Part shown: one piece after another, positions 1,629 through 42,600 of the stretch
How positions within the stretch are numbered: the first letter of the stretch is position 1
Layout: each line of letters begins with the position of its first letter
Assembly: GCA_964645125.1 (NCBI GenBank)
Contig: CAZXZC010000004.1
Span: 1 to 42,600, forward strand
Origin: an uncultured Candidatus Saccharibacteria bacterium
GTDB taxonomy: Bacteria > Patescibacteriota > Minisyncoccia > UBA6257 > 2-01-FULL-56-20
Direction of reading: 5' to 3'
DNA: 42,600 nucleotides
Translations under genes and position numbers: made by a program
Notes under the pieces: model-generated
The model's input: only the letters and a program-made list of their open reading frames with translations
Databases searched by the model: none
Told to the model about the DNA's origin: nothing

Positions 1629-1698
1629 CCGCGATATTTTTTATTAAGAGCGCTCCAAGGCCGCTAGGCCAGTCTTACGCTTAATAAAAAATATGCGA
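1629..1698. repeat. Conserved-core hairpin element, copy A (locus-specific AT-rich stem around GAGCGCTCCAAGGCCGCTAGGCCAGTCTTACGC)
   Basis: Left arm gcgatattttttattaag pairs with right arm cttaataaaaaatatgcg. The core starts at 1648. Confidence 0.85.
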
Positions 1699-4193: not shown

Positions 4194-4909
4194 AGATCCA
4201 TCATTTTGTGTATCCGTATACGGTTGTCGATTCTGTTGTTGTTATTTCTGACAGTGCTATTGTTCGCCAAATTGAACGGGTACTTAAACTTCTGCCTGGA
4301 GAGCATATTGCCCTTATTCATCCCAATGGTGGTAAAGTAGTGTGTGAGATTATTGCATTTGATCGTAAACATCTTACGTGTGCTGTTTTGCATACGGCGC
4401 CAGCTTCTTCTGTTGCTGGGGTTCATTTGTATTTGGCTGTTTTGAAAAAAGAACACTTTGAAGTTGCATGTCAGGGGGCAGTACAGGTGGGAGTATCTGC
4501 TATTACAGGCATGATTACTGACCGCACTATTAAAACAAATATTAATGAGTCGCGACTTACTAAGCTTATTCAAGAATCTGTTGAGCAATCAGAACAGACC
4601 CGTATTCCTTCATTTACTGGAATTATTTCCTTTTCCGATGCGGTGAGCCACGCTTGTTCTTCTGGTGCGCTTGTTTTGTTTTTTGATCCAACCGGGAGTA
4701 ATGTCTCGACAATTTCTGAAATCTCAAAAGATATTTGTGTATTTATTGGCCCTGAGGGTGGATGGAGTGAGCAAGAGCTAGTATTGATACGTACAATGCA
4801 AGAAGACTCAAGCGCCGTTTCTGTTGTGCGATGCGGTGACTCTGTGCTTCGCGCGGAGACTGCTGCGATTGTGGGCGTGTATGTTGCAAGGAGTAGATGC
4901 AAGAATTAA
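4190..4909 (+). CDS. rsmE: 16S rRNA (uracil1498-N3)-methyltransferase
   Basis: Starts with an ATGA overlap onto the upstream stop. C-terminal IGPEGGWS..E and LR.ETAA motifs. Confidence 0.88.
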   Translation: MKIHHFVYPYTVVDSVVVISDSAIVRQIERVLKLLPGEHIALIHPNGGKVVCEIIAFDRKHLTCAVLHTAPASSVAGVHLYLAVLKKEHFEVACQGAVQVGVSAITGMITDRTIKTNINESRLTKLIQESVEQSEQTRIPSFTGIISFSDAVSHACSSGALVLFFDPTGSNVSTISEISKDICVFIGPEGGWSEQELVLIRTMQEDSSAVSVVRCGDSVLRAETAAIVGVYVARSRCKN

Positions 4910-4985
4910 GAATAATGAAGTATGAATAAGGGTTTCTGCAATAATGCATTAAAACCTTAATTCTTTATTCGTTATTCTTTCTTCT
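4899..4985. repeat. AAGAAT/ATGAAT-word palindromic repeat with conserved ATGCATTAAAA loop (family 2)
   Basis: Arms aagaattaagaataatgaagtatgaataagggttt and aaaccttaattctttattcgttattctttc. Overlaps the rsmE stop codon. Confidence 0.8.
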
Positions 4986-4993
4986 CGGTTTTG

Positions 4994-5002
4994 TGGTATA
5001 AT
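4994..5002 (+). promoter_or_regulatory. Extended -10 promoter element TGgTATAAT
   Basis: Lies 31 nt upstream of the 5034 ATG. Confidence 0.55.
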
Positions 5003-5854: not shown

Positions 5855-5940
5855 ACCCACATACTTTGCTGCGGAGAGCGCTCCAAGGCCGCTAGGCCAG
5901 TCCTACTCTCCTTAGTCAAAGTATGTGGGTTTTATTGCAT
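5855..5940. repeat. Conserved-core hairpin element, copy B
   Basis: Stem acccacatactttg / caaagtatgtgggt. The core GAGCGCTCCAAGGCCGCTAGGCCAGTCCTACTC starts at 5876. The element begins 6 nt after the stop codon. Confidence 0.85.
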
Positions 5941-6742: not shown

Positions 6743-6746
6743 CATA

Positions 6747-6835
6747 TTAATTAGTTAACGAATTGCGGATTATTATACACTGTGTGATTGAATTATTTTA
6801 ATTCGTTAATGCGTAATTTCTTAATTTTTTAATCC
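6747..6835. repeat. TTAACGAATTGCG-word palindromic repeat (family 3)
   Basis: TTAACGAATT (6764-6773) pairs with AATTCGTTAA (6800-6809). Homologous to 20841-20920. Confidence 0.75.
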
Positions 6836-6859
6836 AATCATTATGATATAATGATTGGC

Positions 6860-7533: not shown

Positions 7534-7540
7534 CGTAAAT

Positions 7541-7673
7541 TAGCCAATAGCCAGTAGGGTGTAGCCAATAAAACATCAGCCATTAGTATCCCTAGATTTG
7601 AGATCTGGGGATTTGGTTTTTATACATGCTTTTTTGTATTACACTATTGGCTATTCGCCACACCCTAAACCCT
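7541..7673. repeat. GCCAATAG/AGGGT-word palindromic repeat (family 1)
   Basis: Left arm tagccaatagccagtagggtgtagccaata; right arm actattggctattcgccacaccctaaaccct. An inner terminator-like hairpin ccctagat..atctgggg is followed by a T-run. Confidence 0.8.
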
Positions 7674-7680
7674 GTTTATT

Positions 7681-8505: not shown

Positions 8506-8599
8506 AGTGCATAGCTTACAGAGTATAGAAAATAGTAGAGAGTAAATAGCGTATAGGAAATGGTTATAGAATATAGTGGATAGAAAATAAAAAACAAAG

Positions 8600-8646
8600 A
8601 GCAAATGAAAAGTAAAAATCCCCTTGAGCGCGTTGCTCGGGGATTT
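8600..8646 (-). terminator. Intrinsic terminator (minus strand)
   Basis: AAATCCCC..GAGCgcgttGCTC..GGGGATTT followed on the minus strand by TTTTTACTTTTCATTT. Confidence 0.65.
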
Positions 8647-8726
8647 TAAAGAGGGTGCCATTATGCGTAGTCAAAAAAAACAATCTACCTTGTGTAAACG
8701 AGCGTGTTTCATAACTTCTTGCCTCC

Positions 8727-8766
8727 TTTTTAAAAAATACGGCAGCTCTAACTTTCAAGCTGCCGT
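8727..8766 (-). terminator. Intrinsic terminator (minus strand)
   Basis: ACGGCAGC-12 nt-GCTGCCGT followed on the minus strand by ATTTTTT. Confidence 0.65.
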
Positions 8767-9125
8767 TGACGAATATCCAACAAGAATATTGCGTGCCAAG
8801 ATGGGCACAAATATTCTTTTCTTTGCTTCAGTTTTTTACATTTGTAACCACCCCCTTTTTTTGTGAACTCCTTTTACAGTATTGTATTTTTTTTGCGGCG
8901 TAAAGTGGTTTGTTCTGTAAAAAAACGACCCGCGCTGGTGCTGGGTCGGTGTGATGGTATGAAAGTAAATAATGAATGTATCCAGACGTGACTGATTTTT
9001 GCCTAATACAAACTCGCGCGCGCCCATGGAGGGAATTTTAGGGTGCTGGGGAAGCGAGTTTTTTGAAATTTGCATGTATCTAACCGTTCAGTAACGCCTG
9101 GATCTGTGAACACAGTAGCAGGTTA

Positions 9126-9173
9126 TTTTAAAAAAGGAAATGGCGGCTCCGTGTAACATTTGTTAGAGCCGCC
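9126..9173 (-). terminator. Intrinsic terminator (minus strand)
   Basis: GGCGGCTC-16 nt-GAGCCGCC followed on the minus strand by ATTTCCTTTTTT. Confidence 0.7.
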
Positions 9174-9500
9174 ATGGTTGGTGAAGCGTGGGCTTCGTAG
9201 AAAATATTTGCGGGATAGCGGTATCCCTCCTTTTGAAGATTGAAGATTTTGAAACAACTGGATTGTTAATACTTTTTTTGCTCGTGCAGTAGCCCGGTGG
9301 GTGGCATGTGCTTGCGACATGGAGCTTGGGGTGCGTGACTTATTGTATTAACCTCCTTGGTTCACTTTATGGCATCATTATTTTTTGTGCAAGACCATTA
9401 ATTAGTAAATAGGGTAGAGGGTTTAGCCAATAGGGTAAATACAGAAAAATTTTTGGAAATAAAAAAATTTGCCAATGATGTAAGAAATTTAAAATCCTTG

Positions 9501-9549
9501 CAAGAAAGAATAGAAAAAGGACCCAGAAGCTCTGTGGCTTTGGGTCCTT
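9501..9549 (-). terminator. Intrinsic terminator (minus strand)
   Basis: AAGGACCCA-15 nt-TGGGTCCTT followed on the minus strand by TTTTCTATTCTTTC. Confidence 0.65.
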
Positions 9550-10078
9550 GGGGTGAAGCCTGCCGAAAGATACGGAGGGCTGTTGCGCATACAGCCACAA
9601 ATCCATTTGCTGGATCCGTCTGGCGAGTGGCAGGCTTCAAAGACGGAAGACTTACCGGTTATGGGAGCCTGTCGCAGTTGAGAAACTGCGAGATCGAAGA
9701 GTAGAAAAAGATGTACACTCTGCGACAGGCTCAGGGTTTTAGGGTTGCTACAAAAAATCTCGTTGTTTTTTCATGGCTGTAGCCTCCTTTTTTTGGGTTA
9801 ATGCCATGAGTCGTCTCTCTCAGCCACATAAAATAGGTGGCACGTCTCGAGAGTTTTTTTAAGAAAAAATCCATGCTTGGCCGTTCTTCGAGTTTTGGAT
9901 CTGATTGATGACCCGTTTCGAATACTTGGTTGGGGTGATTTTGTTCTTATGACTCCGTGTGCAGGCCTAATTAGAGTGCCCTGCACTACCTCGGTTTGGC
10001 GTGGCTAGCCAAAATCGTCGGCCTTTTTCATGGCCTCCTCCTTTCCGGTTTTTTTGTTATCAACGAACTGTAAGTGCC

Positions 10079-10106
10079 AGCATAGCAAGTTAAAAATATT
10101 TGTCAA
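10079..10106 (-). promoter_or_regulatory. Sigma70-like promoter firing leftward into island L
   Basis: On the minus strand: TTGACA, 16 nt, TATGCT. It is divergent from the tgt promoter. Confidence 0.6.
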
Positions 10107-10166
10107 GGGCTGTTAGTCGTGTATCGCAAATCGTAGAACGTGAATCGTGAAAAACCCTTGGTTTTA

Positions 10167-10195
10167 TTGCCATTTTTGAGGTTTTATGGCATAGT
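10167..10195 (+). promoter_or_regulatory. tgt promoter (TTGCCA-17 nt-TGgCATAGT)
   Basis: The -10 ends 12 nt before the ATG and there is no SD, so the leader is very short or absent. Confidence 0.6.
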
Positions 10196-10207
10196 AATGA
10201 TACGTGT

Positions 10208-11350: not shown

Positions 11351-11417
11351 GAAAAATTTTTCTCGAGAGCGCTCAAGGGTGCTTGCCCAAGCTTTACTCT
11401 CTCGTAAATTTTTTCTT
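11349..11417. repeat. Conserved-core hairpin element, copy F (variant core GAGCGCTCAAGGGTGCTTGCCCAAGCTTTACTC)
   Basis: Stem aagaaaaatttttctcgagag / ctctctcgtaaattttttctt. The left arm contains the tgt stop codon. The inner mini-hairpin is changed compensatorily to GGGT-GCTT-GCCC. Confidence 0.8.
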
Positions 11418-11432
11418 AAATTTATTTTTATT

Positions 11433-12470: not shown

Positions 12471-12606
12471 GCAAGCCAATAGCCAAAAGGGTATGGGGTT
12501 TAGTGAAACTGCGAACAAACTGAAGTATCAATGCATTTGATTCTTCTTACTATTGGCCATTGGCTAAACCCTATTGGCTTGCTAAATGGCCACACCCTAC
12601 ACCCTC
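12471..12606. repeat. GCCAATAG-word palindromic repeat (family 1)
   Basis: GCAAGCCAATAG (12471-12482) pairs perfectly with CTATTGGCTTGC (12571-12582). Additional CTATTGGC words occur at 12550 and 12571. Confidence 0.85.
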
Positions 12607-12639
12607 TTGTATTTTTTATTTCATGTGGTATAGTATTTT

Positions 12640-12925
12640 TAGTTCGGCAATTCGTGTTTTTCTAGCTTTCAAGCGTACTTACCAGAATATATTGAGCGCT
12701 GGGAATGGCACTGATTTGCCCCATACTCTTATCGAAGCTGATTTATTTAGATCGCTATTTAAAGTTCTATATGAGCTTTTTGTTTTTGCCAGCGACCATG
12801 AGTTCTCCTCTCTCCCGGAGCAACGTTCTCAGATTCCCCTAGTTCGTTGTTCCTTTTTTCTCCGCTGTGTTTCACTGCTTTTCTCACAAGAAGGCCTTGA
12901 AACCAGCGGACTTTTTTTATTTTCA
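12640..12925 (+). ncRNA. Candidate ~280-nt standalone transcript
   Basis: TTGTAT-16 nt-TGgTATAGT promoter (about 12612-12639). Closing stem CCGCTG/CAGCGG followed by ACTTTTTTT at about 12861-12920. Contains a decayed copy of the GAGCGCT core at 12694. No SD-led ORF. Confidence 0.35.
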
Positions 12926-12956
12926 TACTTTATTTTTGTAGTGGTATGATATTTAC

Positions 12957-13430
12957 ATGATTACTATTGGAATGAATGCACCGGATTTTTCATTACCGGA
13001 TCAAGATGGGGCAGTTCACACTCTCAAAGAGTATAAAGGCAAGTGGTTACTCATTTATTTTTACCCAAAAGATAATACGCCGGGGTGTACAAAAGAGGCA
13101 TGCAGTTTGCGTGACTTATTTCCAAACTTTCGAAAACAGCATATGGAGGTTGTTGGGGTGAGTGCGGATAGTGTTGCATCGCATAAAAAATTTGCATTGG
13201 CCTACAACTTACCATTTACGCTGTTGGCTGATACGGAGCGTGATATGATACAGGCTTACGGGGTGTGGCAAAAAAAGAAGTTTATGGGCAAAGAATATAT
13301 GGGTATCGTGCGCAGTTCATTTTTAATAGACCCAAAAGGGAAAATCGCGAAAGTGTATGAAAAAGTGAAACCGGAGTTGCATGGGAAAGAAGTGGAAAAG
13401 GACTTACAGGGTCTAGCCAATGGCCAATAG
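12957..13430 (+). CDS. bcp: Thioredoxin-dependent peroxiredoxin Bcp
   Basis: Contains FYPKDNTPGCT.EAC. TGgTATGAT at 12942-12950 ends 6 nt before the ATG, implying a leaderless mRNA. Confidence 0.93.
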   Translation: MITIGMNAPDFSLPDQDGAVHTLKEYKGKWLLIYFYPKDNTPGCTKEACSLRDLFPNFRKQHMEVVGVSADSVASHKKFALAYNLPFTLLADTERDMIQAYGVWQKKKFMGKEYMGIVRSSFLIDPKGKIAKVYEKVKPELHGKEVEKDLQGLANGQ

Positions 13431-13492
13431 GGTGTAGTAAGCAATGAAAAATGTTTCTTTGATTTCACTATTGGCTAAACCCTATTTGGCTA
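13411..13492. repeat. GCCAATAG-word palindromic repeat (family 1) overlapping the bcp 3' end
   Basis: ctagccaatggccaatag encodes the last residues LANGQ plus the TAG stop. The right arm is ctattggctaaaccctatttggcta. Confidence 0.8.
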
Positions 13493-13505: not shown

Positions 13506-14339
13506 ATGAAGCCATTAATTGGTGGGCATGTGTCAGCAGCGGGTGGGGCGTTTAAGGCATTTGGGAATGCTGCCACTATTGGTGCATCTGCAATTCAAAT
13601 ATTTGGTGCCTCCCCCCAGTCGTGGCGGACTAAATTGCCTGATGCGGCGGACGCGGCAAAATTTCAGGCTGCGTGGAAGGCGAGTGAGGTGAAGGCTGTG
13701 TATTTACATGCAGCATACCTCGTAAATTTGGCTACTGAAAATGATGAACTCTATGAAAAATCGATTACGAATTTGAGTGAGCATTTGGCTATTGCCAAAG
13801 CACTTGGTGCGAATGGACTTATTTTCCATATTGGTTCAGGCGAGAACATGAAGCGAGTAGTTGCGGGCATGAAGCAGACGCTTAAAAACGTGCCTGGCAC
13901 GACGCAACTTATTATTGAAAACAGCGCGGCTGGCGGGAAAAAGGTGGGTGGGAAGCCTGAAGATATTGGGGCGATTATGAATTCGGTTAAGTCTCCTCGA
14001 GTGAAGGTGTGCTTGGATACGGCGCATATTTTTGAGGCAGGGGAGATTGAAAGCTACACACAGCCCAACATTAAAAAATTATTTGATCGAATTGAAGCAT
14101 CTATTGGAGTGGAGAACTTAGTGGCCATGCATGTGAATGATTCGAAAACTCCGTTTAACTCGCACCATGACCGACATGAAAATATTGGGCAGGGGCATAT
14201 TGGCTTGGACGGGTTTAAAAACTTGGCGAAAGAAAAGCGAACGCACCATGTGGCATGGTTGTTGGAGGTGCCGGGGATGGAAGGCAACGGACCAGATAAG
14301 GAGAATGTGGATATTTTGAAGAAACTCTTTGTTGGTTGA
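13506..14339 (+). CDS. nfo: Endonuclease IV (deoxyribonuclease IV)
   Basis: Contains the H..YL.NL, FH.GS, CLDT.H.F and LE.P motif series. TATACT at 13493-13498 lies 7 nt before the ATG. Confidence 0.93.
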   Translation: MKPLIGGHVSAAGGAFKAFGNAATIGASAIQIFGASPQSWRTKLPDAADAAKFQAAWKASEVKAVYLHAAYLVNLATENDELYEKSITNLSEHLAIAKALGANGLIFHIGSGENMKRVVAGMKQTLKNVPGTTQLIIENSAAGGKKVGGKPEDIGAIMNSVKSPRVKVCLDTAHIFEAGEIESYTQPNIKKLFDRIEASIGVENLVAMHVNDSKTPFNSHHDRHENIGQGHIGLDGFKNLAKEKRTHHVAWLLEVPGMEGNGPDKENVDILKKLFVG

Positions 14340-14416
14340 GACAATAATACCCTTGTCATAGAGCGCTCCAAGGCCGCTTGGCCGGTCTTACTCTAAGCCA
14401 AGGGTATTATTGTCTC
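14338..14416. repeat. Conserved-core hairpin element, copy C
   Basis: Perfect 18-bp stem GAGACAATAATACCCTTG / CAAGGGTATTATTGTCTC. The left arm includes the last two bases of the nfo stop codon. The core GAGCGCTCCAAGGCCGCTTGGCCGGTCTTACTC starts at 14361. Confidence 0.9.
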
Positions 14417-14715
14417 CAATTTATTTACTTCTTTTTTCAAAATATTTGTGGAGTGAAGGATGGAAGAAAAAAACAACGGCAACTTGCCCAAGCTTTACTC
14501 TCTTAAAAACTTTATAAAAATAAATGAAGGCATGCTTTCTTTCGAAATATCCCGGGGGTGGAGGTGTAAGAAGAAGGCAGCAGCGCCAGGCCAAGGTTTA
14601 CTCTACTCGAAACAATATTATCCATTTTTTTATATAAATTTCTTTGCAAAATATCGTTTGGAGTGAGGATGGAGGACAAATACAAAAAGGCCAAAATATT
14701 TGCTATAATGTTTTT

Positions 14716-14839
14716 TAGTGAGAGCCGATTTATTATTATCGCGGTAGTTAGTCGGCTTTGATGTGCGTTTTGTGATTTATCAGTGTGTTTTTCTATTTTT
14801 GGTTTCGCCATCGACGCCCCCCGGTCGATGGCTTTTTTT
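14716..14839 (+). ncRNA. Candidate ~125-nt U-rich sRNA
   Basis: TGcTATAAT at 14701-14709. Internal hairpin AGCCGA..TCGGCT. Terminator GCCATCGAC-8 nt-GTCGATGGC plus T7. No ORF. Confidence 0.45.
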
Positions 14840-15117
14840 ATTGACGATTTTTTCATAATTGGGTAGGCTTGTTTTGAAAGAGGTTTTCTCCCTGCCTTTT
14901 TCATTTACAATTAAATAGGTGGATATCCAGGAGCAATTCTGGAAATGACACGCTTTGTGTTTGTGGCGCATGGCTACATGAAATGGAATATTTTCCTCCA
15001 TACCTGAGCTATACAGCCTGCCGAAGTTTACACCGCGTAAACTTATCTATAACTTTTCAACCATTCGATCGCTTTCAATCTGTTCAGTGTCAAGCCCATA
15101 TTTCATGGTTTTACCAG

Positions 15118-15146
15118 CCAGCGTATTTTTATGCGCTGGTTTTTTT
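15118..15146 (+). terminator. Intrinsic terminator
   Basis: CCAGCG-10 nt-CGCTGG followed by TTTTTTT. Confidence 0.65.
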
Positions 15147-15290
15147 GACTTCAGGATCCTACTTCGGTATTCTTAAACTCTACAGCTTCTTGAGAACTCC
15201 ATAAACCAACCCGAAGAATTTCTTTTGCGATGCAGGGAATTATTGGCAGGGGAGATTCTTCTTAACCAGAATTGTTTCATAGGGGGTTTT

Positions 15291-15404
15291 ATGCAAGGAA
15301 TTTTTCTTTGCGGAAAACAACTCGTACATGCAACCGACCTTTCCGTTTGCCTGGGTGAATGTCCAGGTGAACGTGAAACGGTCATTACCGGAAGGGAAGT
15401 TTGA
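15291..15404 (+). CDS. Candidate 37-aa Cys-containing micro-protein (family member P2)
   Basis: AGGGGG, 4 nt, ATG. Product is MQGIFLCGKQLVHATDLSVCLGECPGERETVITGREV. A T7 run lies 14 nt after the stop. Paralogous to 15441-15584. Confidence 0.45.
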   Translation: MQGIFLCGKQLVHATDLSVCLGECPGERETVITGREV

Positions 15405-15440
15405 CCCACTGGTCGGACTTTTTTTACGGTAGGGAGTAAA

Positions 15441-15584
15441 ATGATGACAACATCGAATCTTGTGCGTGGTGCGCCCATTATTAAATACCCGGCTGGATCC
15501 TTTCAATCCCAATGTCCGGGCGAGAGTGGGTATGGCTGTGGCGAAGGTGTCCCGTACCGAGTTGGTGGGTGCTGCTTGAACTGA
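15441..15584 (+). CDS. Candidate 47-aa Cys-rich micro-protein (family member X)
   Basis: GGGAG, 4 nt, ATG. Product is MMTTSNLVRGAPIIKYPAGSFQSQCPGESGYGCGEGVPYRVGGCCLN. The substitution pattern against its paralogues is synonymous. Frame +2 remains open to 15649. Confidence 0.5.
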   Translation: MMTTSNLVRGAPIIKYPAGSFQSQCPGESGYGCGEGVPYRVGGCCLN

Positions 15585-15673
15585 TCACGCCTGTTGGCAT
15601 CGGTCTAGGCACGCCCCCTTGTTTTTGGTGCTTCGCTTGCCGTAAGTGAAGTTGGTTTAAACCCTGTTTACCC

Positions 15674-15717
15674 CCCCCATAGAAGACGTATATTCTTTTA
15701 TGGGGGCTTTCTTTTTT
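15674..15717 (+). terminator. Intrinsic terminator
   Basis: CCCCCATAGAAG-9 nt-CTTTTATGGGGG followed by CTTTCTTTTTT. Confidence 0.75.
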
Positions 15718-16052
15718 GATTTGATTTTCATGTTTTTTTTGCTAGGATTTTATTGCGGTTGCATTGAAATTTGGTTACTCAGAACAAAAAGGGCAGCGGC
15801 ATGTAGTTATTAAGGCTGCTTCACGTATCCTTTATGATTTGTCCTTCGTGGCATTTCAGCTGGGTAATCTGGAGCTGTTTCCTGTGAAGGCATGAACGCG
15901 CTTCTTTGCCTGGGGACCGCTTCTATCCTGTAATTTCTTGTGACTGTTTCCAGGCATCGCCTGATGTCTTTTGTGTAACTATAGATTTGGAACTCTTTTT
16001 TGTTGGTTAGAAAGAGTAATGTGTTGTTGATTTTTCAATGAATGTTTCTCCT

Positions 16053-16090
16053 GGCCACGTTTGATAACCGACCGTGGCCTTTTTATTTAT
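16053..16090 (+). terminator. Intrinsic terminator closing island R
   Basis: GGCCACG-13 nt-CGTGGCC followed by TTTTTATTT. Confidence 0.7.
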
Positions 16091-16099
16091 ATTTTTTCT

Positions 16100-16321
16100 A
16101 TGCGTATTGAAGTTGTGGTAAAGCCAAAAGCAAAAAAGACGGTCATTGAGCAAACGGGAGACGCTTCATTTTTGGTTTCAGTAACGGAGCCACCGCACGA
16201 TAATGAGGCGAATTTTGCTGTTATGGATGTATTGAGCACACATTTCGCTATACCGCTTTCACGGATTCGATTGATTGGCGGTAAAACTTCACGGCACAAA
16301 TTTTTTGATATACAACTGTAG
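16100..16321 (+). CDS. DUF167 (YggU) family protein
   Basis: Contains MRIEVVVKPKAKK...V.EPP.DNEAN..V...L....IP.S.I.L..GKTSR.K. Confidence 0.85.
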   Translation: MRIEVVVKPKAKKTVIEQTGDASFLVSVTEPPHDNEANFAVMDVLSTHFAIPLSRIRLIGGKTSRHKFFDIQL

Positions 16322-16324
16322 GCA

Positions 16325-17089
16325 ATGCATGACATTCAAAAACAAATTGAGGTGATTATTCGAGATAAGTACGATGGTACTTCACCAACTCAAGAAGAGC
16401 TTGCTGTAGATATTACTCGGCTTATGGACGGTGAGCCGATTGATTATGTTATTGGGTGGAAGCCTTTTTTGAATATGAAGATTGATCTTTCTTACAAACC
16501 ACTGATTCCCCGGGTTGAAACGGAATACTGGGTGGATAGCGCGTTGGAAGATATAAAGCGACGTTTTGGTGATAGTACTATGCGAGTTTTGGATTTGTTT
16601 TGTGGTTCGGGGTGTATTGGTTTGGCTGCGCTGTCGCGACTGTCGAATGCGTCGGTTGTTTTTGCAGATAGTGACGAAAGAATGGGCGAGCAGGTAGCGC
16701 GGAGCGCTACTATAAATGGCATAGATACTTTGCGATTTTCATTTATGACCTCAGATATTTTTTCGAATATTTCAGGTACATATGATGTTGTATTCGCAAA
16801 TCCGCCGTATATTCCTGTTTCACGAAAAGAACTGCTTGACGCGTCGGTTGTACGATTTGAGCCGCATAGTGCATTGTTTGCTGAAGACGGTGGACTGTTT
16901 TTTATAAAAAAGTTTTTCATGGAGTTACCGTATTATTTGAGTAAAGAGGGTGTTTGTTTTTTGGAGTATGATACTGGTCAAGAAGCGGCGATTGAAGCAT
17001 TCGTGCAAGCTCATACTCCGTTTACGACGGAATTTTTTAACGATCAGTATGGGAAGTATCGGTGGGGAAGGATCAAATACAGCCAATAG
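16325..17089 (+). CDS. prmC: Release factor glutamine N5-methyltransferase PrmC/HemK
   Basis: Contains PLIPR.ETE, LDLFCGSGCIG and NPPYIP motifs. The stop TAG lies inside a GCCAATAG word. Confidence 0.9.
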   Translation: MHDIQKQIEVIIRDKYDGTSPTQEELAVDITRLMDGEPIDYVIGWKPFLNMKIDLSYKPLIPRVETEYWVDSALEDIKRRFGDSTMRVLDLFCGSGCIGLAALSRLSNASVVFADSDERMGEQVARSATINGIDTLRFSFMTSDIFSNISGTYDVVFANPPYIPVSRKELLDASVVRFEPHSALFAEDGGLFFIKKFFMELPYYLSKEGVCFLEYDTGQEAAIEAFVQAHTPFTTEFFNDQYGKYRWGRIKYSQ

Positions 17090-17205
17090 GGTATAGCCAT
17101 CCGCCGGCTGGCGGAGCCAATAGTTTTAAACAAATACATAGATTCCGGCTCGGCGGCCGGAATGACAGAAGAGTTGCTGGCTATTGGCTCAACCCTAAAC
17201 CCTAG
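17081..17205. repeat. GCCAATAG-word palindromic repeat (family 1) with inner GC hairpins
   Basis: GCCAATAG at 17082 and 17116; CTATTGGC at 17181. Inner hairpins CCGCCggctGGCGG and TTCCGGCtcggcGCCGGAA. Confidence 0.8.
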
Positions 17206-17215
17206 TTTTTCCACA

Positions 17216-17244
17216 TTGACATTACTGTGCAAGTCTGTTATCAT
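17216..17244 (+). promoter_or_regulatory. Sigma70 promoter TTGACA-17 nt-TATCAT for the RRM gene
   Basis: Consensus -35 and 17-nt spacer. Predicts a 5' UTR of about 118 nt. Confidence 0.65.
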
Positions 17245-19549: not shown

Positions 19550-19662
19550 GGTAAGCCAATAGAAAAACTAGCCGCTAGGGTTTAGGGTATAGCGAATAGT
19601 TAAATCAAAAACTTTATGTCTTTGTCTGACTATACCGCAAACCCTATTGGCCATACCCTTGG
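19547..19662. repeat. GCCAATAG/AGGGT-word palindromic repeat (family 1)
   Basis: Left arm tagggtaagccaatag...ctagggtttagggtatagcgaatag; right arm actataccgcaaaccctattggccataccc. It shares a 24-mer, inverted, with 23461-23484. Confidence 0.8.
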
Positions 19663-20306: not shown

Positions 20307-20362
20307 TATTTCTCCTGGAGCGCTCCGGGCCGCTAGGCCAAGTCTTACGCCAGGAGAAATAT
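20306..20362. repeat. Conserved-core hairpin element, copy D
   Basis: Stem ATATTTCTCCTGG / CCAGGAGAAATAT starts at the last base of the stop codon. The core is GAGCGCTCCGGGCCGCTAGGCCAAGTCTTACGC. Confidence 0.88.
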
Positions 20363-20840: not shown

Positions 20841-20920
20841 ATTATGCGATTAATCAATTAATGAATTGCGCATTAGGACATACACTTTTAATTCGTTAAT
20901 CCGCAATATATTAATTTGTT
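20841..20920. repeat. TTAATGAATTGCG-word palindromic repeat (family 3)
   Basis: ttttaattcgttaatccgcaatatattaat is homologous to 6797-6826. The left arm is attaatgaattgcgcatta. Confidence 0.75.
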
Positions 20921-20962
20921 CATTCATACAACATTACCTGCGTAATGTTGTATTATTAAGCT

Positions 20963-23450: not shown

Positions 23451-23527
23451 CTAGGGCGCAGGGTATAGTCAGACAAAAGCATAAATTTTGCCTTAACTAC
23501 TGGCTATTAACTTAACCCTATTGCCCG
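23451..23527. repeat. AGGGT/CTATTG-word repeat (family 1, degenerate)
   Basis: Contains ctagggcgcagggtatagtcagacaaaagcata...ctggctattaacttaaccctattgccc. Confidence 0.65.
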
Positions 23528-31037: not shown

Positions 31038-31101
31038 ACATGCTCCTTAAAATCCTTAATTTACAAGCTTTTTAGTTGTTTTTTAAAAGCGTCAGAAATA
31101 C

Positions 31102-31129
31102 TTGACAAAATTTGTAAGTACGCTATACT
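31102..31129 (+). promoter_or_regulatory. Sigma70 promoter TTGACA-16 nt-TATACT
   Basis: Consensus hexamers in the glyQS-mreB spacer. Confidence 0.7.
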
Positions 31130-31135
31130 GCGTGT

Positions 31136-31420
31136 TAGATGCGCTGGGTTATGTGATTCTTCATTGTAATCATGGTTTTTCAATGAGGAATCGCTATGGA
31201 TCATCCGGTTCCGGCGGCGACTTTTATCCGTACCCAGTGCTCATTTCATAATTTTGAACCGATAGGGAGGGATCTTTTTCTATAAAACCCTATCGGATTC
31301 TATACTTCGTTGAAGTCGCTCCCTTTTATTATTTTAACCAAAGGGAGCAATCTCAAAACAATTTTTAACTTTCAAAAGGCCCTAAGCGCATTTCATAGCT
31401 TCTGGCCTTTTTCCTTTTTT
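31136..31420 (+). ncRNA. Standalone ~285-nt highly structured transcript carrying micro-ORF Z
   Basis: Has its own promoter and terminator (AAGGCC..GGCCTT plus TTTTCCTTTTTT at 31376-31420). Four stems of 9-11 bp. Confidence 0.5.
31196..31285 (+). CDS. Candidate 29-aa micro-protein (family member Z)
   Basis: GAGGA, 6 nt, ATG. Product is MDHPVPAATFIRTQCSFHNFEPIGRDLFL. The TQC-x5-EP spacing is identical to ITQCAGEGVEP in the 37581-37979 ORF, with synonymous codon differences. Confidence 0.4.
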   Translation: MDHPVPAATFIRTQCSFHNFEPIGRDLFL

Positions 31421-31431
31421 ATATGGCAAAG

Positions 31432-31460
31432 TTGCCTGGGGCAGTTTTTTCGCCTATCAT
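31432..31460 (+). promoter_or_regulatory. mreB promoter TTGCCT-17 nt-TATCAT
   Basis: The -10 ends 9 nt before the ATG and there is no SD. Confidence 0.55.
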
Positions 31461-31469
31461 GAACCCACT

Positions 31470-32477: not shown

Positions 32478-32482
32478 CAAAA

Positions 32483-32516
32483 GCCACTAGGGTATAGCCA
32501 ATGGCCAATAGTAAGC
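32483..32516. repeat. GCCAATAG-word repeat, single arm (family 1)
   Basis: tagccaatggccaatagtaagcaat is nearly identical to 13414-13445. Confidence 0.75.
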
Positions 32517-32552
32517 AATTTAAATACAAGAATAACGATCCGTCAGCTGGCG

Positions 32553-32625
32553 GAAAGAATTATGAATTAAGGTTTCCGCGTAATGCATTAAAAAACCCTT
32601 ATTCTTTATTCTCCATTCTTAATTC
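32553..32625. repeat. AAGAAT/ATGAAT-word palindromic repeat (family 2), abutting the holB ATG
   Basis: Loop ccgcgtaATGCATTAAAAAA. Arms gaaagaattatgaattaaggttt and acccttattctttattctccattcttaattc. Confidence 0.8.
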
Positions 32626-33465
32626 ATGAGTCAAAATTTTTTATATAAAAATCCGATTGTTGCTCGACTTGAAGAACAAGCAAAGATTAATACGCTTTCC
32701 CATGCCTACTTGTTTTTTGGCCCTTGGCTTGTGGGAAAACGCACATTTGGATTGCGGTTAGCACGTATTCTTGAGCATGGCGACGGGGACACGGAAAAAC
32801 CGCTTCACGACATATTATCTCTCTCTTCTGAAATGGGGGTGGAAGCAGCGCGTGAAGTGAAATCATTTTTATATACTCGACCAGCATATTCAAAACGCCG
32901 TACTGTGTTGTTTTGTGCCATTGATGGAGCAACTCGCGTTACTTCGGATGCACTTTTGAAAACCATAGAAGAGCCGCATCGTGACACGCTCATTCTCTTA
33001 ACAGCCACGCATGTTGATGCGGTACCAGACACTATTCTTTCGCGAGTTCAAAGCGTGTATTTTGCGCCCGTTGAATCTTCGCGCATAGAGTCGTGGCTTA
33101 CCGAAAAAACGAAAGTGCGTGGGCTGACGTCATCAGCTTCACATATTCATGCAGCTGTTGCGCAGGCAGGAGGACTCCCAGGTCTTGCCTGGCGACTCCT
33201 GCATGATGCAGAATTTCTCGCAACACTTACTACTGCTCAAAAATATCTTCGCACCACGCCTGCTTCTGTTTCAGCGTTTGTAAAAGATATGCTTGAAACA
33301 CACGAAGATTTTTCATTGCCGATATTTTTAGATTTCCTATTATTGGCGCTTTCTTTTGACCCCAAAACACCTTCTGCGTTTTTGCAAAAAACTATTGCCT
33401 TAGCACGCGATGCACGTGAATATAACCTTAATCCAAAGTTGCAACTTATTGCACTGAAGCAGTGA
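32626..33465 (+). CDS. holB: DNA polymerase III delta' subunit
   Basis: Contains HAYLF.GP...GK, LLKT.EEP and SR motifs. Confidence 0.85.
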   Translation: MSQNFLYKNPIVARLEEQAKINTLSHAYLFFGPWLVGKRTFGLRLARILEHGDGDTEKPLHDILSLSSEMGVEAAREVKSFLYTRPAYSKRRTVLFCAIDGATRVTSDALLKTIEEPHRDTLILLTATHVDAVPDTILSRVQSVYFAPVESSRIESWLTEKTKVRGLTSSASHIHAAVAQAGGLPGLAWRLLHDAEFLATLTTAQKYLRTTPASVSAFVKDMLETHEDFSLPIFLDFLLLALSFDPKTPSAFLQKTIALARDAREYNLNPKLQLIALKQ

Positions 33466-33470
33466 GCAGG

Positions 33471-33500
33471 ATTTAGGGTTTAGTAGCCAATAGCTAATAC
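33471..33500. repeat. AGGGTTTAG/GCCAATAG-word repeat, single arm (family 1)
   Basis: Sequence atttagggtttagtagccaatagctaatac. Confidence 0.7.
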
Positions 33501-33548
33501 GATGCAAAAGGTGGAAAAAAACCTCATTTTTTAGTACTATATATCGAT

Positions 33549-35839: not shown

Positions 35840-35957
35840 AAACAATTCTTACTCCTTTCGCTTCTAATGCGCGTGAGATTCGTGTTGATTGTCAAAATCA
35901 AACTCTACTTAGGGTAATAAAAAAACGTGCTTTTGCCAAATTACAGAAAAATACATG

Positions 35958-36026
35958 AACTAAGAATTGAGAATAATGAATAAAGGTTCCTGCATTAAAA
36001 ACCTTAATTCTTACTTCTTTATTCTA
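35958..36026. repeat. AAGAAT/ATGAAT-word palindromic repeat (family 2)
   Basis: Left arm aactaagaattgagaataatgaataaaggtt, loop cctgcattaaaa, right arm aaccttaattcttacttctttattctatt. Overlaps the ABC-F stop codon. Confidence 0.8.
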
Positions 36027-37986: not shown

Positions 37987-38039
37987 CAGTACTACCAGAG
38001 ATTCCTCGGCAAGCTTCGCAATAGCAGAGGGATTTTTTT

Positions 38040-38104
38040 CTATTGACCATTGGCTTGTCCTGAGCTTGTCGAAGGGCTAAACCAAACCCTATTGGCTCTA
38101 TTTT
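38040..38104. repeat. CTATTGGC-word repeat (family 1)
   Basis: Contains ctattgaccattggc ... ggctaaaccaaaccctattggctctatttt. Confidence 0.7.
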
Positions 38105-39875: not shown

Positions 39876-39946
39876 AGCTATTCTATTTTATGAAGAGCGC
39901 TCCGGGGCCGCTAGGCCAGTCTTACGCTTCATACAATAGAATAGCT
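39876..39946. repeat. Conserved-core hairpin element, copy E
   Basis: 20-bp stem AGCTATTCTATTTTATGAAG / CTTCATACAATAGAATAGCT with one mismatch. The core GAGCGCTCCGGGGCCGCTAGGCCAGTCTTACGC has the same + orientation although the flanking genes are on the minus strand. Confidence 0.88.
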
Positions 39947-42464: not shown

Positions 42465-42493
42465 TGCGGGATCGTCTAATGGTAGGACTCCGC
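42465..42493 (+). pseudogene. Duplicated 5' half of tRNA-Gln (29 nt identical to 42529-42557)
   Basis: tgcgggatcgtctaatggtaggactccgc is repeated exactly. No anticodon loop, T-arm or 3' acceptor strand follows. Confidence 0.8.
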
Positions 42494-42528
42494 TGTTTTT
42501 ATAAATTGGAAATATTAGTTTCCACCGC

Positions 42529-42599
42529 TGCGGGATCGTCTAATGGTAGGACTCCGCCCTTTGGAGGCGGCTATCTTGGTTCGAATCCAGGTCCCGCAG
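42529..42599 (+). tRNA. tRNA-Gln (anticodon UUG)
   Basis: Acceptor TGCGGGA/TCCCGCA (U1-A72), D-arm GTCT/GGAC, anticodon stem CCGCC/GGCGG with loop CTTTGGA, T-arm CTTGG-TTCGAAT-CCAGG, discriminator G. Confidence 0.9.
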
Positions 42600-42600
42600 C

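What the first reader, a model, noticed from the sequence alone, without database searches (positions are those of the whole stretch)
14340..16099. 1.76 kb ORF-poor island R made of five tandem terminator-bounded units
In an otherwise tightly packed genome this interval has no ORF of 60 aa or more that respects the signals. Instead there is a series of plus-strand units. Two degenerate 210-nt repeats begin CAAAATAT(T/C)..GGAGTGA(A)GGATGGA (14437 and 14647), and each contains a decayed GAGCGCT-core copy. A TGcTATAAT-driven ~125-nt U-rich RNA (14716-14839) follows. Next come a unit ending at 15146, then the P2 unit, the X unit ending at 15717, and a ~370-nt hairpin-rich unit ending at 16090 just before yggU. 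The GC content looks higher than in ordinary spacers, and many 6-12 bp stems are present.
Basis: seen in the sequence. Interest (0 to 1): 0.7.

Follow-up and report, generated by a model that had tools for sequence, protein, structure and literature searches.

The report
Terminator-rich noncoding island after nfo
A 1.76-kb gene-free stretch between two housekeeping genes of a Parcubacteria (CPR) genome is real and packed with same-strand transcription terminators, but its nearest relatives lack it, so it is best read as a young patch of repeat debris plus a few unproven candidate small-RNA genes.

Summary
The island (14340-16099, between nfo and yggU/DUF167) is real. It has no ORF with homologs, no Pfam or Rfam match, and no large ORF under any stop-codon recoding. 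A second assembler reproduces it base for base. It holds 6-7 plus-strand intrinsic terminators (0.5 expected by chance) and none on the minus strand. These cut it into five units.

The units are not paralogous. The "210-nt repeats" are only a ~56-nt motif recurring at 209-nt spacing, next to decayed copies of a GAGCGCT hairpin element. That first ~370 nt is unstructured duplication debris. The remaining ~1.4 kb has four to five orphan units with modest plus-strand-specific folding. One unit (14716-14839) sits behind a perfect TGnTATAAT box.

Synteny is conserved but the spacer is hypervariable: 3 nt, 293 nt, ~760-790 nt and 1760 nt across relatives. Only the GAGCGCT hairpin and the last ~90 nt are shared with the closest relative. 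A degenerate copy of the nfo 3' end marks the right edge.

Best reading (~0.5): a lineage-specific accretion that now carries a few independently terminated small transcripts, most likely sRNAs. Neutral debris is the main rival (~0.3). Expression is untested.

The parts
13506..14339 (+). nfo (endonuclease IV), the left flanking gene. Its last ~45 nt are repeated in degenerate form at 15972-16020.
   Evidence: Pfam PF01261, E=2.6e-38. Homologs are named deoxyribonuclease IV from Parcubacteria/Patescibacteria.
14338..14416 (+). E0, an intact GAGCGCT hairpin element. The core is 14361-14393, with an apical GGCC-GCUU-GGCC hairpin and a 16-26 bp copy-specific basal stem that starts in the nfo stop codon.
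   Evidence: Six copies in the window. Inverted repeat I7 is 92% complementary. Folding z = -7.8. In the alignment of 8 copies, 11 of 15 pairs show compensatory changes. An ortholog sits after nfo in L001.
14420..14476 (+). head1, the first copy of the ~56-nt repeated motif (..CAAAATATTTGTGGAGTGAAGGATGGAAGA..). It may be a relic of a tgt 3' end.
   Evidence: Local alignment with head2 scores z about 12. It resembles the tgt 3' end of L160 (score 41, 0 of 1000 shuffles) and the window's own tgt (33, 9 of 1000). Control spacer 60-mers reach at most 32.
14477..14515 (+). E1, a decayed copy (3' half) of the GAGCGCT(b) element that follows tgt.
   Evidence: 21 of 21 nt match window 11382-11402. A 41-nt alignment to the L001 post-tgt element scores z = 11.
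14574..14618 (+). E2, a second decayed GAGCGCT-type copy with its AT-rich downstream spacer.
   Evidence: 75% identical to the E1 tail. Weak colinear matches to 11387-11407 and 11409-11427.
14629..14686 (+). head2, the second copy of the ~56-nt motif, 209 nt after head1.
14701..14709 (+). Perfect extended -10 box TGCTATAAT. Predicted transcription start at about 14716.
   Evidence: One of 3 TGNTATAAT matches in the window, all on the plus strand in spacers. Two of them sit directly upstream of genes.
14716..14839 (+). Candidate sRNA-A (~124 nt): a 5' hairpin, a U-rich single-stranded stretch, then terminator T1 (stem 14807-14832, seven T at 14833-14839).
   Evidence: Terminator found. Fold z = -3.1 on plus and -2.3 on minus. 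Structure shown.
14840..15146 (+). Unit U3, ending in terminator T2 (stem 15116-15141 plus T-run). A weak TTGACG -35 box (14841-14846) overlaps the T1 tail. It contains a 20-aa ORF behind an SD (14945-15007).
   Evidence: z = -3.7 plus, -1.4 minus. Without the terminator z = -1.8.
15145..15173 (+). Promoter-like TTGACT-17-TATTCT that overlaps the T2 U-tract.
   Evidence: 9 of 12 consensus match. This is a consensus match only.
15147..15425 (+). Unit U4, the best-structured unit. It has three long hairpins, including a 16-bp stem with five G-U pairs at about 15213-15262. It ends in terminator T3 (stem 15398-15419, T-run to 15425). It contains a 37-aa ORF (15291-15404) whose start codon lies inside a hairpin.
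   Evidence: Fold z = -4.4. z = -3.7 on plus against -1.5 on minus. Still -3.25 without the terminator, 0 of 80 shuffles. T3 seen and by eye.
15441..15584 (+). Orphan 47-aa Cys/Gly-rich ORF behind an AGGGAG SD, 13 nt after T3. A gene caller called it as 46 aa.
   Evidence: Codon usage looks non-coding. HMMER against 1.84 billion representatives finds only itself plus repeat-protein artefacts.
15426..15717 (+). Unit U5/X (50.7% GC). It ends in a C8 run and terminator T4 (stem 15674-15706, tail to 15717).
   Evidence: z = -2.5 with the terminator and -1.0 without.
15718..16084 (+). Unit U7, ending in terminator T5 (stem 16053-16059 / 16073-16079, T-run 16080-16084), 15 nt before the yggU ATG.
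   Evidence: z = -2.0. Without the terminator z = -1.0.
15972..16020 (+). Degenerate direct repeat of the nfo 3' end (pseudo-nfo-3'). It marks the right edge of the inserted material.
   Evidence: Score 31 against 21.6 +/- 2.9 in shuffles (10 of 1000). L001 has the same feature at the equivalent place (27 against 19.1 +/- 3.0, 22 of 1000). Seed D8.
16020..16099 (+). Anchor shared with L001. This is the presumed ancestral nfo-yggU spacer, including T5 and -35/-10-like boxes for yggU.
   Evidence: Alignment of 15950-16129, which runs from about 16020 into the first ~25 nt of yggU, to the L001 spacer end scores 50 against 27.6 +/- 4.2 (0 of 200).
16100..16321 (+). yggU (DUF167), the right flanking gene, followed by a PrmC-like methyltransferase at 16325-17089.
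   Evidence: Pfam PF02594, E=1.8e-18.

Best explanation
The island is a lineage-specific accretion in a spacer that is a hot spot for insertions in this Parcubacteria clade. Ancestrally nfo and yggU were adjacent or about 90 nt apart.

Material was inserted at the very 3' end of nfo. This left a displaced, degenerate copy of the nfo end at 15972-16020 (suggestive, not proven). The inserted material then grew.

Its first ~370 nt (14340-14715) is a GAGCGCT hairpin element plus non-functional debris. The debris was made by copying element-containing spacer pieces and is not a set of RNA units.

The remaining ~1.4 kb (14716-16084) consists of four to five unrelated, independently terminated plus-strand transcription units of 120-370 nt. 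I infer that these are transcribed as discrete small RNAs that end at the intact intrinsic terminators. sRNA-A (14716-14839) and U4 (about 15180-15425) are the best candidates. They would act as orphan regulatory or structural sRNAs. U4 could alternatively be an attenuating leader of the small ORF that follows it.

Shown: the anatomy, the terminator enrichment, the strand bias, the lack of homologs and the lack of conservation. Inferred: transcription, sRNA function and the order of events.
For: - Terminators: 6 plus-strand sites (plus T4) against 0.51 +/- 0.70 in shuffles, and none on the minus strand. The island is 4% of the window but holds 6 of its 15 plus-strand sites.
- Terminator condition: the stems are perfect or nearly so (7-13 bp), while the adjacent repeat copies E1, E2 and the heads have decayed to about 75-85% identity or lost half their length.
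- Folding: z = -2.0 to -3.7 on the plus strand against -0.9 to -2.3 on the minus strand. Coding controls average -0.06. U4 stays at -3.25 without its terminator.
- Promoters: TGCTATAAT at 14701 belongs to a class found only three times in the window, always on the plus strand in spacers. TTGACT-17-TATTCT follows T2 directly.
- Not protein-coding: no Pfam hit. No homolog at E<=10 for 15 open frames among 5.8 billion proteins. tblastx finds nothing. No large ORF appears under recoding.
- Debris part: R1 and R2a are unstructured, z = +0.5 and +1.2. E1 matches the tgt-queA element 21 of 21 nt. Heads analysed.
- Lineage-specific: the spacer is 3 nt (L160-L162), 293 nt (L001), 763 nt (L002), about 790 nt (L004/L005), at least 469 nt (L163), and 3-8 nt in more distant Parcubacteria.
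- Shared with L001: only E0 and the last ~90 nt.
- By analogy: the same spacer in L004 and L163 carries a conserved promoter and hairpins with compensatory changes. A second ORF-poor spacer is 81% identical between the window and L001. Spacer RNAs under selection therefore do exist in this clade.
- Not an assembly artefact of one program: Logan contig L216 is identical to window 14362-16475.
Against: - No expression data exist for any unit.
- None of the units is found in any of 163 related loci, in phage or plasmid records, or in Rfam. There is therefore no covariation or conservation support for any unit.
- The closest relative keeps other spacer RNAs at about 80% identity but has none of these units.
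- Apart from U4, the excess folding is mostly the terminator hairpins themselves.
- Promoters for U3, U5/X and U7 are weak or absent by sigma-70 consensus.
- The pseudo-nfo-3' repeat is only p about 0.01-0.02 in each genome.
Confidence: 0.5

Rival explanations
1. Neutral junk. The whole island is non-functional DNA accumulated by ectopic duplication and insertion around GAGCGCT hairpin elements, and it is on its way to deletion. The terminators are hitch-hikers copied from other gene ends, or leftovers of lost genes.
For: - The content is absent from all relatives and the spacer length is hypervariable.
- The 5' 370 nt is demonstrably duplication debris.
- Other spacers of this genome are also expanded relative to L001: 486 nt against 90 nt, and 1702 nt against about 1080 nt.
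- A half tRNA-Gln duplicate at 42465 shows that the same process acts elsewhere.
- Most units are not over-structured once the terminator is removed.
Against: - Seven intact, co-oriented terminators in 1.76 kb, with none on the other strand, are hard to obtain by neutral decay.
- Their stems are intact while nearby repeat copies are visibly degraded.
- U4 has a strong plus-strand-specific fold with many G-U pairs.
- There is a perfect extended -10 box upstream of T1.
- Small CPR genomes are generally thought to be deletion-biased (background knowledge).
Confidence: 0.3
2. A cluster of small protein genes. Each unit is a short mRNA: SD, then an sORF of 20-68 aa, then a terminator. The 47-aa Cys-rich peptide (15441-15584) and the 37-aa ORF whose stop lies in T3 are examples.
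For: - Five plus-strand sORFs with SD-like sequences, roughly one per unit, against two on the minus strand.
- The 46/47-aa ORF was called by a gene caller.
- The 30-aa ORF (14669-14761) and a 43-aa TTG ORF have gene-like codon scores, in the 1-2% tail of off-frame ORFs.
Against: - No homolog for any frame in 5.8 billion or 1.84 billion proteins, and no Pfam hit.
- The 68-aa and 47-aa ORFs have non-coding codon usage, and the 37-aa and 20-aa ORFs are ambiguous.
- The SD-plus-ATG of the 68-aa and 30-aa ORFs is part of the repeated head motif, which looks like a relic of another gene's end.
- The 37-aa start codon is buried in a hairpin.
- With about 25 ORFs tested, a 1-2% tail is expected by chance.
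Confidence: 0.12
3. Remnant of an integrated mobile element that targeted the 3' end of nfo. The element brought its own copy of the gene end, which is now the functional nfo end. It displaced the native end to the far junction (15972-16020). Integrase and cargo have since been lost or replaced. This concerns origin and can coexist with the other readings.
For: - Degenerate direct repeats of the nfo terminus bracket the inserted material in both the window and L001, at equivalent positions.
- The ancestral state is compact.
- The content between the repeats differs completely between lineages.
Against: - The repeat is short and only p about 0.01-0.02 per genome.
- There is no integrase, transposase or phage gene, and no match to phage, plasmid or viral collections.
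- A plain tandem duplication would give the same repeats.
- No residual similarity to the neighbouring queA-bcp-nfo block was found, so a decayed local 3-kb duplication is not supported either.
Confidence: 0.2
4. A long cis-acting leader. The units, at least U7 with T5, are a multi-attenuator 5' leader that controls yggU-prmC.
For: A terminator hairpin sits no more than about 35 nt upstream of the yggU start in the window, L001 and L004. The last ~90 nt are conserved with L001.
Against: - L160 and more distant relatives have no spacer at all.
- Five full terminators in series is not a known leader design.
- There is no Rfam riboswitch or leader hit.
- -35/-10-like boxes overlapping T5 suggest that yggU has its own promoter (sequence inspection).
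Confidence: 0.06
5. A known structured RNA or array that was missed: RNase P, tmRNA, 6S, SRP, a riboswitch, or a CRISPR, TIGR or type III toxin-antitoxin repeat array.
For: Only chance-level Rfam hits on terminator hairpins (NsiR1 E=0.047, LhrC, MicA, STnc480).
Against: No hit at gathering score. No tRNA or tmRNA. No tandem repeats. No unit-to-unit similarity.
Confidence: 0.02

Closest known systems
Tandem sRNA gene arrays such as cyanobacterial NsiR1 repeats, Listeria LhrC1-5, Vibrio Qrr1-5, and OmrA/B or PrrF1/2 (from my own knowledge; Rfam families RF02399, RF00616, RF00079)
   Same: Several short transcription units lie head to tail on one strand, each ending in its own intrinsic terminator, inside a spacer.
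   Different: In those arrays the units are paralogs of one sequence. Here the five units share no similarity. None matches those families above chance, and expression is unproven.
Repetitive extragenic palindromes and related small dispersed hairpin repeats (REP/BIME, Rickettsia palindromic elements, Neisseria Correia elements; from my own knowledge)
   Same: The GAGCGCT element (E0, with decayed copies E1 and E2) is a short hairpin repeat dispersed in spacers, usually just after stop codons. It occurs in many copies and is associated with local rearrangement. Logan contigs break at it.
   Different: Here the apical and internal-loop sequence is conserved, while the basal stem is different in every copy and co-varies. 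That is the reverse of REPs. No RAYT-type or other transposase could be looked for, because only one contig is available.
Genomic islets integrated at the 3' end of a gene, bounded by att direct repeats that duplicate the gene end (from my own knowledge of tRNA- and gene-end-targeting integrative elements)
   Same: Lineage-specific DNA begins exactly at the stop codon of a conserved gene and ends at a degenerate copy of that gene's terminus.
   Different: There is no recombinase or other mobile-element gene. The region is only 1.6 kb. The repeat is weak, and the content is wholly non-coding.
Non-coding DNA accumulation in reduced genomes, such as the decayed spacers of Rickettsia prowazekii and Mycobacterium leprae (from my own knowledge)
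   Same: A long spacer with no detectable homology in an otherwise small genome. Recognisable gene-end and repeat relics are present.
   Different: No pseudogene can be recognised for about 1.4 kb. The region is unusually rich in intact terminators.

Membership tests
Intrinsic (Rho-independent) terminators | A G+C-containing stem-loop followed directly by a U-tract on the transcribed strand | tested here: met
   T1-T5 have 7-13 bp stems followed by 5-7 T. There are 6 sites against 0.51 expected, all on the plus strand.
Tandem paralogous sRNA array (NsiR1, LhrC or Qrr type) | The units are homologous copies of one another | tested here: not met
   All unit pairs except the R1/R2 heads score at shuffle level. 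TRF finds nothing.
Tandem paralogous sRNA array (NsiR1, LhrC or Qrr type) | Each unit has its own promoter and is expressed | not testable with these tools
   Only consensus matches are available: TGCTATAAT at 14701 and TTGACT-17-TATTCT at 15145. There are no transcriptome data.
Any curated RNA family (Rfam 15) | Covariance-model score at or above the family's gathering threshold | tested here: not met
   No hit in the island at gathering score. The best sub-threshold hits are terminator look-alikes.
Protein-coding genes or pseudogenes | Detectable homologs or domains in some reading frame | tested here: not met
   Pfam: none. 5.8 billion proteins: none at E<=10. 1.84 billion representatives: only the window's own ORF. 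tblastx: none.
Protein-coding genes or pseudogenes | Gene-like codon usage of the candidate sORFs | tested here: inconclusive
   Two of six short ORFs fall in the coding range. The 68-aa and 47-aa ORFs fall in the non-coding range, and the 37-aa and 20-aa ORFs are ambiguous.
CRISPR, TIGR or other spacer-repeat arrays | Regularly spaced short direct repeats | tested here: not met
   TIGR arrays are described in PMC12045711 (found; only title and abstract read).
REP-like dispersed hairpin repeats (applies to E0, E1 and E2 only) | A short imperfect palindrome, extragenic, in multiple copies per genome | tested here: met
   Six copies in 42.6 kb and two orthologous copies in L001. Hairpin supported by compensatory changes.
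REP-like dispersed hairpin repeats (applies to E0, E1 and E2 only) | A conserved palindrome sequence and an associated RAYT-type or IS200-like transposase | tested here: inconclusive
   The stems are copy-specific and only the inner part is conserved. The transposase cannot be searched for without the rest of the genome.
Integrated element at a gene 3' end | Direct repeats duplicating the end of the target gene at both junctions | tested here: inconclusive
   A degenerate repeat is present in the window and in L001, at p about 0.01-0.02 each.
Integrated element at a gene 3' end | A recombinase or other mobile-element gene inside | tested here: not met
Conserved (orthologous) non-coding locus | Sequence or structure retained at the syntenic site in relatives | tested here: not met
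   Only E0 and the last ~90 nt are shared with L001. Nothing is shared with L002, L004, L160 or L163.

The most novel reading that the evidence does not exclude
The nfo-yggU junction may be a birthplace or capture site for new RNA genes in streamlined CPR genomes. Each lineage has filled the same operon junction with a different set of promoter-to-terminator RNA units. These are conserved within the L004/L163 lineage and orphan in this genome. Under this reading the window shows the process in action. Hairpin-element-mediated duplications supply raw DNA. Terminators and strong -10 boxes then turn pieces of it into five independent sRNA genes that uncouple nfo from yggU-prmC.
Probability: 0.2. 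Interest if true: 0.65.

Novelty: new member of a known kind. Interest (0 to 1): 0.4.

Why it matters
Almost nothing is known about regulatory RNAs in Patescibacteria (CPR). My two literature searches on CPR/Patescibacteria non-coding or small RNAs found only the TIGR-Tas paper.

A 1.76-kb gene-free, terminator-dense stretch is unusual for such small genomes. If the units are expressed, they would be among the first candidate trans-acting sRNAs of this radiation. The hypervariable nfo-yggU spacer would then be a natural system for watching RNA genes appear and disappear.

If the units are silent, the island instead shows that even streamlined episymbiont-type genomes tolerate kilobase-scale debris produced by a small hairpin repeat. 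That matters for gene-density assumptions in MAG annotation.

Tried and rejected
- Known RNA families: Rfam at gathering score on the whole window, and at E<=10 on the island. Only chance hits. ARAGORN found no tRNA or tmRNA in the island.
- Tandem array (CRISPR, TIGR, ToxI-like): TRF and direct-repeat search were negative.
- Hidden gene with recoded stops: the longest frame is 178 codons (150 on the plus strand) under any single read-through.
- Pseudogene or domain relics: Pfam on the 10 longest frames. A chimeric query of 15 frames against 5.8 billion proteins. tblastx against the window and 163 loci. All negative.
- The 47-aa Cys-rich ORF as a conserved peptide: full HMMER search found only itself and repeat-protein artefacts.
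- Units as paralogs of one another or of other spacers in the window: rejected.
- Units as orthologs of relatives' spacers: blastn, nhmmer and local alignments were negative except for E0 and the 3' anchor.
- Phage or plasmid origin: blastn against INPHARED and PLSDB found nothing. The GAGCGCT pattern in IMG/VR gave 51 hits. All lack the 3' TTAC tail of the element, and most have G+C-rich flanks, so they are chance matches.
- Island interior as a decayed tandem copy of queA-bcp-nfo: no colinear residual similarity.
- Misassembly: a Logan contig of SRR8797213 is identical over 14362-16475. The neighbouring contig ends inside the repeated E0 core. Both probably derive from the same reads, so this is not biological replication.
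- Metagenome and genome scans with Nfo found no relative closer than 85%, so within-species conservation could not be tested.
- Link between island units and the mini-ORF RNA family of the second ORF-poor spacer: no D[FY][GL]-stop mini-ORF occurs in the island.
Full report
CONTEXT. The window comes from a Parcubacteria/Patescibacteria (CPR) genome. The Nfo protein encoded at 13506-14339 has its best named homologs in Parcubacteria and Patescibacteria MAGs. Pfam confirms the neighbourhood: HhH-GPD, TGT, QueA, AhpC/Bcp, Nfo (PF01261), then the island, then YggU/DUF167 (PF02594) and a PrmC-like methyltransferase. All genes from 35 to 35174 are on the plus strand.

- Between the nfo stop (14339) and the yggU start (16100) there is no plus-strand ORF of 90 aa or more. 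No frame exceeds 178 codons (150 on the plus strand) even if one stop codon is read through.
- The consensus scan finds strong plus-strand terminators at 14807-14832, 15116-15141 and 15674-15706. Reading the sequence adds 15398-15419 plus seven T, and 16053-16079 plus five T.
- A stricter scan of my own gives 6 plus-strand sites in the island against 0.51 +/- 0.70 (maximum 3) in 200 dinucleotide shuffles. It gives none on the minus strand. The island is 4% of the window but holds 6 of its 15 plus-strand sites.
- GC is 41.7%, against 37.6% for the other spacers and 45.3% for coding sequence.
- A Logan assembly of run SRR8797213 contains window 14362-16475 exactly. The neighbouring Logan contig stops inside the repeated core of the first hairpin. 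The island is therefore not a quirk of one assembler.

- The two '210-nt repeats' share only a ~56-nt head (14420-14476 and 14629-14686), 209 nt apart. The remainder is no more alike than shuffles (47 of 300 shuffles).
- The decayed GAGCGCT copies are at 14477-14515 and about 14574-14618. The first matches the element in the tgt-queA spacer 21 of 21 nt, and aligns over 41 nt to the L001 copy with z = 11.
- The other units share nothing with each other.

ANATOMY, PART 1: 14338-14715, DEBRIS.
- E0 (14338-14416) is an intact member of a hairpin repeat with six copies in the window.
- In an alignment of eight copies the apical stem (GGCC/GGCC against GGGY/GCCC) and the copy-specific basal stems co-vary: 11 of 15 pairs show compensatory changes.
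- Among 163 related loci the element occurs only in the window and in L001. In L001 it sits at the two orthologous places, after tgt and after nfo.
- Downstream of E0 the order is head1, E1, E2, head2.
- The heads resemble the 3' end of tgt. Scores are: L160 tgt 41 (0 of 1000 shuffles), the window's own tgt 33 (9 of 1000), and control spacer 60-mers at most 32.
- E2 and its AT-rich tail are weakly colinear with the tgt-queA spacer.
- This part folds no better than shuffles, z = +0.5 and +1.2.
- I read it as copies of element-containing gene-end and spacer pieces. The 'SD + ATG' of the 68-aa and 30-aa ORFs is then part of a relic, not a real ribosome-binding site.
- A half copy of tRNA-Gln at 42465-42498, just upstream of the real gene, shows the same kind of short local duplication elsewhere.

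ANATOMY, PART 2: 14716-16084, UNITS.
- TGCTATAAT at 14701-14709 is one of three TGNTATAAT matches in the window. All three are on the plus strand in spacers, and two sit directly upstream of genes.
- Together with T1 this box predicts a ~124-nt RNA with a 5' hairpin, a U-rich single-stranded stretch and a terminator.
- TTGACT-17-TATTCT (15145-15173) overlaps the U-tract of T2.
- Folding z-scores on the plus strand are -3.1 (sRNA-A), -3.7 (U3), -3.7 (U4), -2.5 (U5/X) and -2.0 (U7). On the minus strand they are -0.9 to -2.3. Coding controls average -0.06.
- With the terminators removed only U4 remains clearly significant (-3.25, 0 of 80 shuffles). U3 falls to -1.8 and the rest to about -1 to -1.6.
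- U4 contains a 16-bp hairpin with five G-U pairs, which only the plus-strand RNA can form.

CODING TESTS.
- Five plus-strand sORFs of 20-68 aa have SD-like sequences.
- None has a Pfam hit.
- None of 15 open frames has a homolog at E<=10 among 5.8 billion proteins. tblastx against the window and the loci is empty.
- The 47-aa ORF hits only itself among 1.84 billion representatives, plus repeat-protein artefacts.
- Codon usage is non-coding-like for the 68-aa and 47-aa ORFs, ambiguous for the 37-aa and 20-aa ORFs, and gene-like for a 30-aa ORF and a 43-aa TTG ORF. With this many candidates that is within chance.

- The order bcp-nfo-yggU-prmC is conserved, but the nfo-yggU distance varies widely:
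  - 3 nt in L160, L161 and L162 (Nfo 76% identical)
  - 293 nt in L001 (85%)
  - 763 nt in L002 (74%)
  - about 790 nt in L004 and L005 (68%)
  - at least 469 nt in L163 (70%)
  - 3-8 nt in more distant Parcubacteria (L019, L020, L022, L041)
- No relative closer than 85% exists in the genome, metagenome or protein collections.
- blastn and nhmmer of the island against all loci recover only E0.
- A local alignment adds the last ~90 nt, 16020-16099 (score 50 against 27.6 +/- 4.2, 0 of 200).
- About 1.5 kb is therefore specific to this lineage.
- Just 5' of the shared anchor, both the window (15972-16020) and L001 (10979-11015) carry a degenerate copy of their own nfo 3' end (10 of 1000 and 22 of 1000 shuffles). 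This suggests that the inserted material is bracketed by a duplication of the gene end. That fits either an old integration at the nfo terminus or a tandem duplication.
- A decayed copy of the whole queA-bcp-nfo block is not supported.

DO SPACER RNAs UNDER SELECTION EXIST IN THIS CLADE? Yes.
- The L004 and L163 nfo-yggU spacers share a TTGACA-17 promoter, hairpins with compensatory changes, and a strong-SD mini-ORF (MKKGDYG* and MKRDYG*).
- The window's other ORF-poor spacer (8506-10207) is up to 81% identical to L001 over minus-strand, highly structured units.
- The absence of the island's units from L001 is therefore informative. It is not decisive, because YggU and PrmC are only 56% and 53% identical between the two genomes.

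INTERPRETATION. I commit to a composite reading at about 0.5.
- The island is a lineage-specific accretion at a hot-spot junction.
- Its first fifth is hairpin-element debris.
- The rest consists of four to five unrelated, independently terminated plus-strand transcription units, most likely orphan sRNAs. sRNA-A and U4 are the strongest candidates.
- The terminators also uncouple nfo from yggU-prmC. yggU appears to have -35/-10-like boxes overlapping T5 (sequence inspection; inference).
- The main rival is neutral debris whose terminators are hitch-hikers (about 0.3).
- Small-protein genes (about 0.12), a multi-attenuator leader of yggU (about 0.06) and a missed known RNA or array (about 0.02) are less likely.
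- The integrated-element origin (about 0.2) is compatible with any of these.

COMPARISON WITH KNOWN SYSTEMS.
- The layout resembles tandem sRNA arrays (NsiR1, LhrC, Qrr). It fails their defining feature, paralogous units.
- E0, E1 and E2 behave like REP-type dispersed hairpins, but with the conservation pattern inverted: conserved interior and variable stem.
- The boundary repeat recalls att sites of elements integrated at gene ends, but there is no recombinase.
- Nothing here requires a new kind of system. If real, the units are new, orphan members of the ordinary class of terminator-ended bacterial small transcripts.

LIMITS.
- There are no expression data and no close relatives, so there is no covariation test for any unit.
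- Promoter calls are consensus matches only.
- The head-to-tgt and pseudo-nfo similarities are statistically modest.

Noticed in passing
window 8506-10207 (minus strand), with L001 5920-7000, L004 8865-9115 and L163 3385-3410: A second 1.7-kb ORF-poor spacer lies between HhH-GPD and tgt. It carries minus-strand, highly structured units (fold z = -5.9 for 9515-9800) that are 72-81% identical to L001, as conserved as the best proteins. Each unit starts with a strong SD and a 7-11-codon mini-ORF ending D-F/Y-G/L-stop (MKKQRDFL*, MKKADDFG*; L001 has MKKQKDFL* and MTKTHKTHDFG*). A similar SD plus MKKGDYG* or MKRDYG*, followed by a ~170-nt structured RNA (z = -6.8), sits on the plus strand in the nfo-yggU spacer of L004 and L163. 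No Rfam match. This looks like an undescribed conserved RNA family.
   Followed up: partly
window 1639-1689, 5867-5917, 11367-11399, 14352-14402, 20318-20350, 39886-39936; L001 8213-8248 and 10832-10866: GAGCGCT hairpin element. It has a conserved ~33-nt interior (palindromic GAGCGCTC, then a GGCC-GCUA-GGCC hairpin, then AGUCUUACKC) inside a basal stem that differs in every copy and co-varies (11 of 15 pairs compensatory). All copies are on the plus strand, mostly right after stop codons, with no U-tract. It is found only in this genome and L001 among 163 loci, and not in viral contigs. Logan contigs break at it. Function unknown.
   Followed up: partly
window 7540-7680, 9411-9443, 12472-12612, 13408-13486, 17081-17210, 19570-19602, 23491-23522, 32481-32524, 33467-33520, 38034-38104: A family of spacer motifs combines AGCCAATAG / CTATTGGCT with AACCCTAAACCCTA / TAGGGTTTAGGGT, in either orientation. 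They often lie just upstream of -35/-10 boxes, for example before TTGACA-17-TATCAT at 17216. The motif is absent from the island's interior. It may be a regulator-binding site or another dispersed repeat.
   Followed up: no
window 42465-42498 against 42529-42600: A 34-nt copy (94% identical) of the 5' half of tRNA-Gln(UUG) lies 64 nt upstream of the intact gene. This is another short local duplication relic.
   Followed up: partly
window 4897-4984, 32590-32628, 35951-36031; also 6746-6836 and 20886-20926: Two further spacer repeat families. One is ..GAATAATGAA..GCATTAAAACCTTAATTCTTTATTC.. in three spacers. The other is TTAATTCGTTAATGCGTAATT-type motifs in two spacers.
   Followed up: no
window 31038-31469: A 432-nt spacer has a near-consensus promoter TTGACA-16-TATACT (31102-31129, 11 of 12) about 340 nt upstream of the next gene. 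This is a candidate long leader or ncRNA.
   Followed up: no
window 12471-12956: The queA-bcp spacer is 486 nt here but 90 nt in L001. Its only long ORF (129 aa, TTG start) has no Pfam hit. Spacer expansion therefore seems to be genome-wide in this lineage, and my gene list covers only about 80% of the window.
   Followed up: no
window 4994-5002, 6844-6852, 14701-14709: All three TGNTATAAT extended -10 boxes of the window are on the plus strand in spacers. This suggests that this promoter type is used by the organism.
   Followed up: partly
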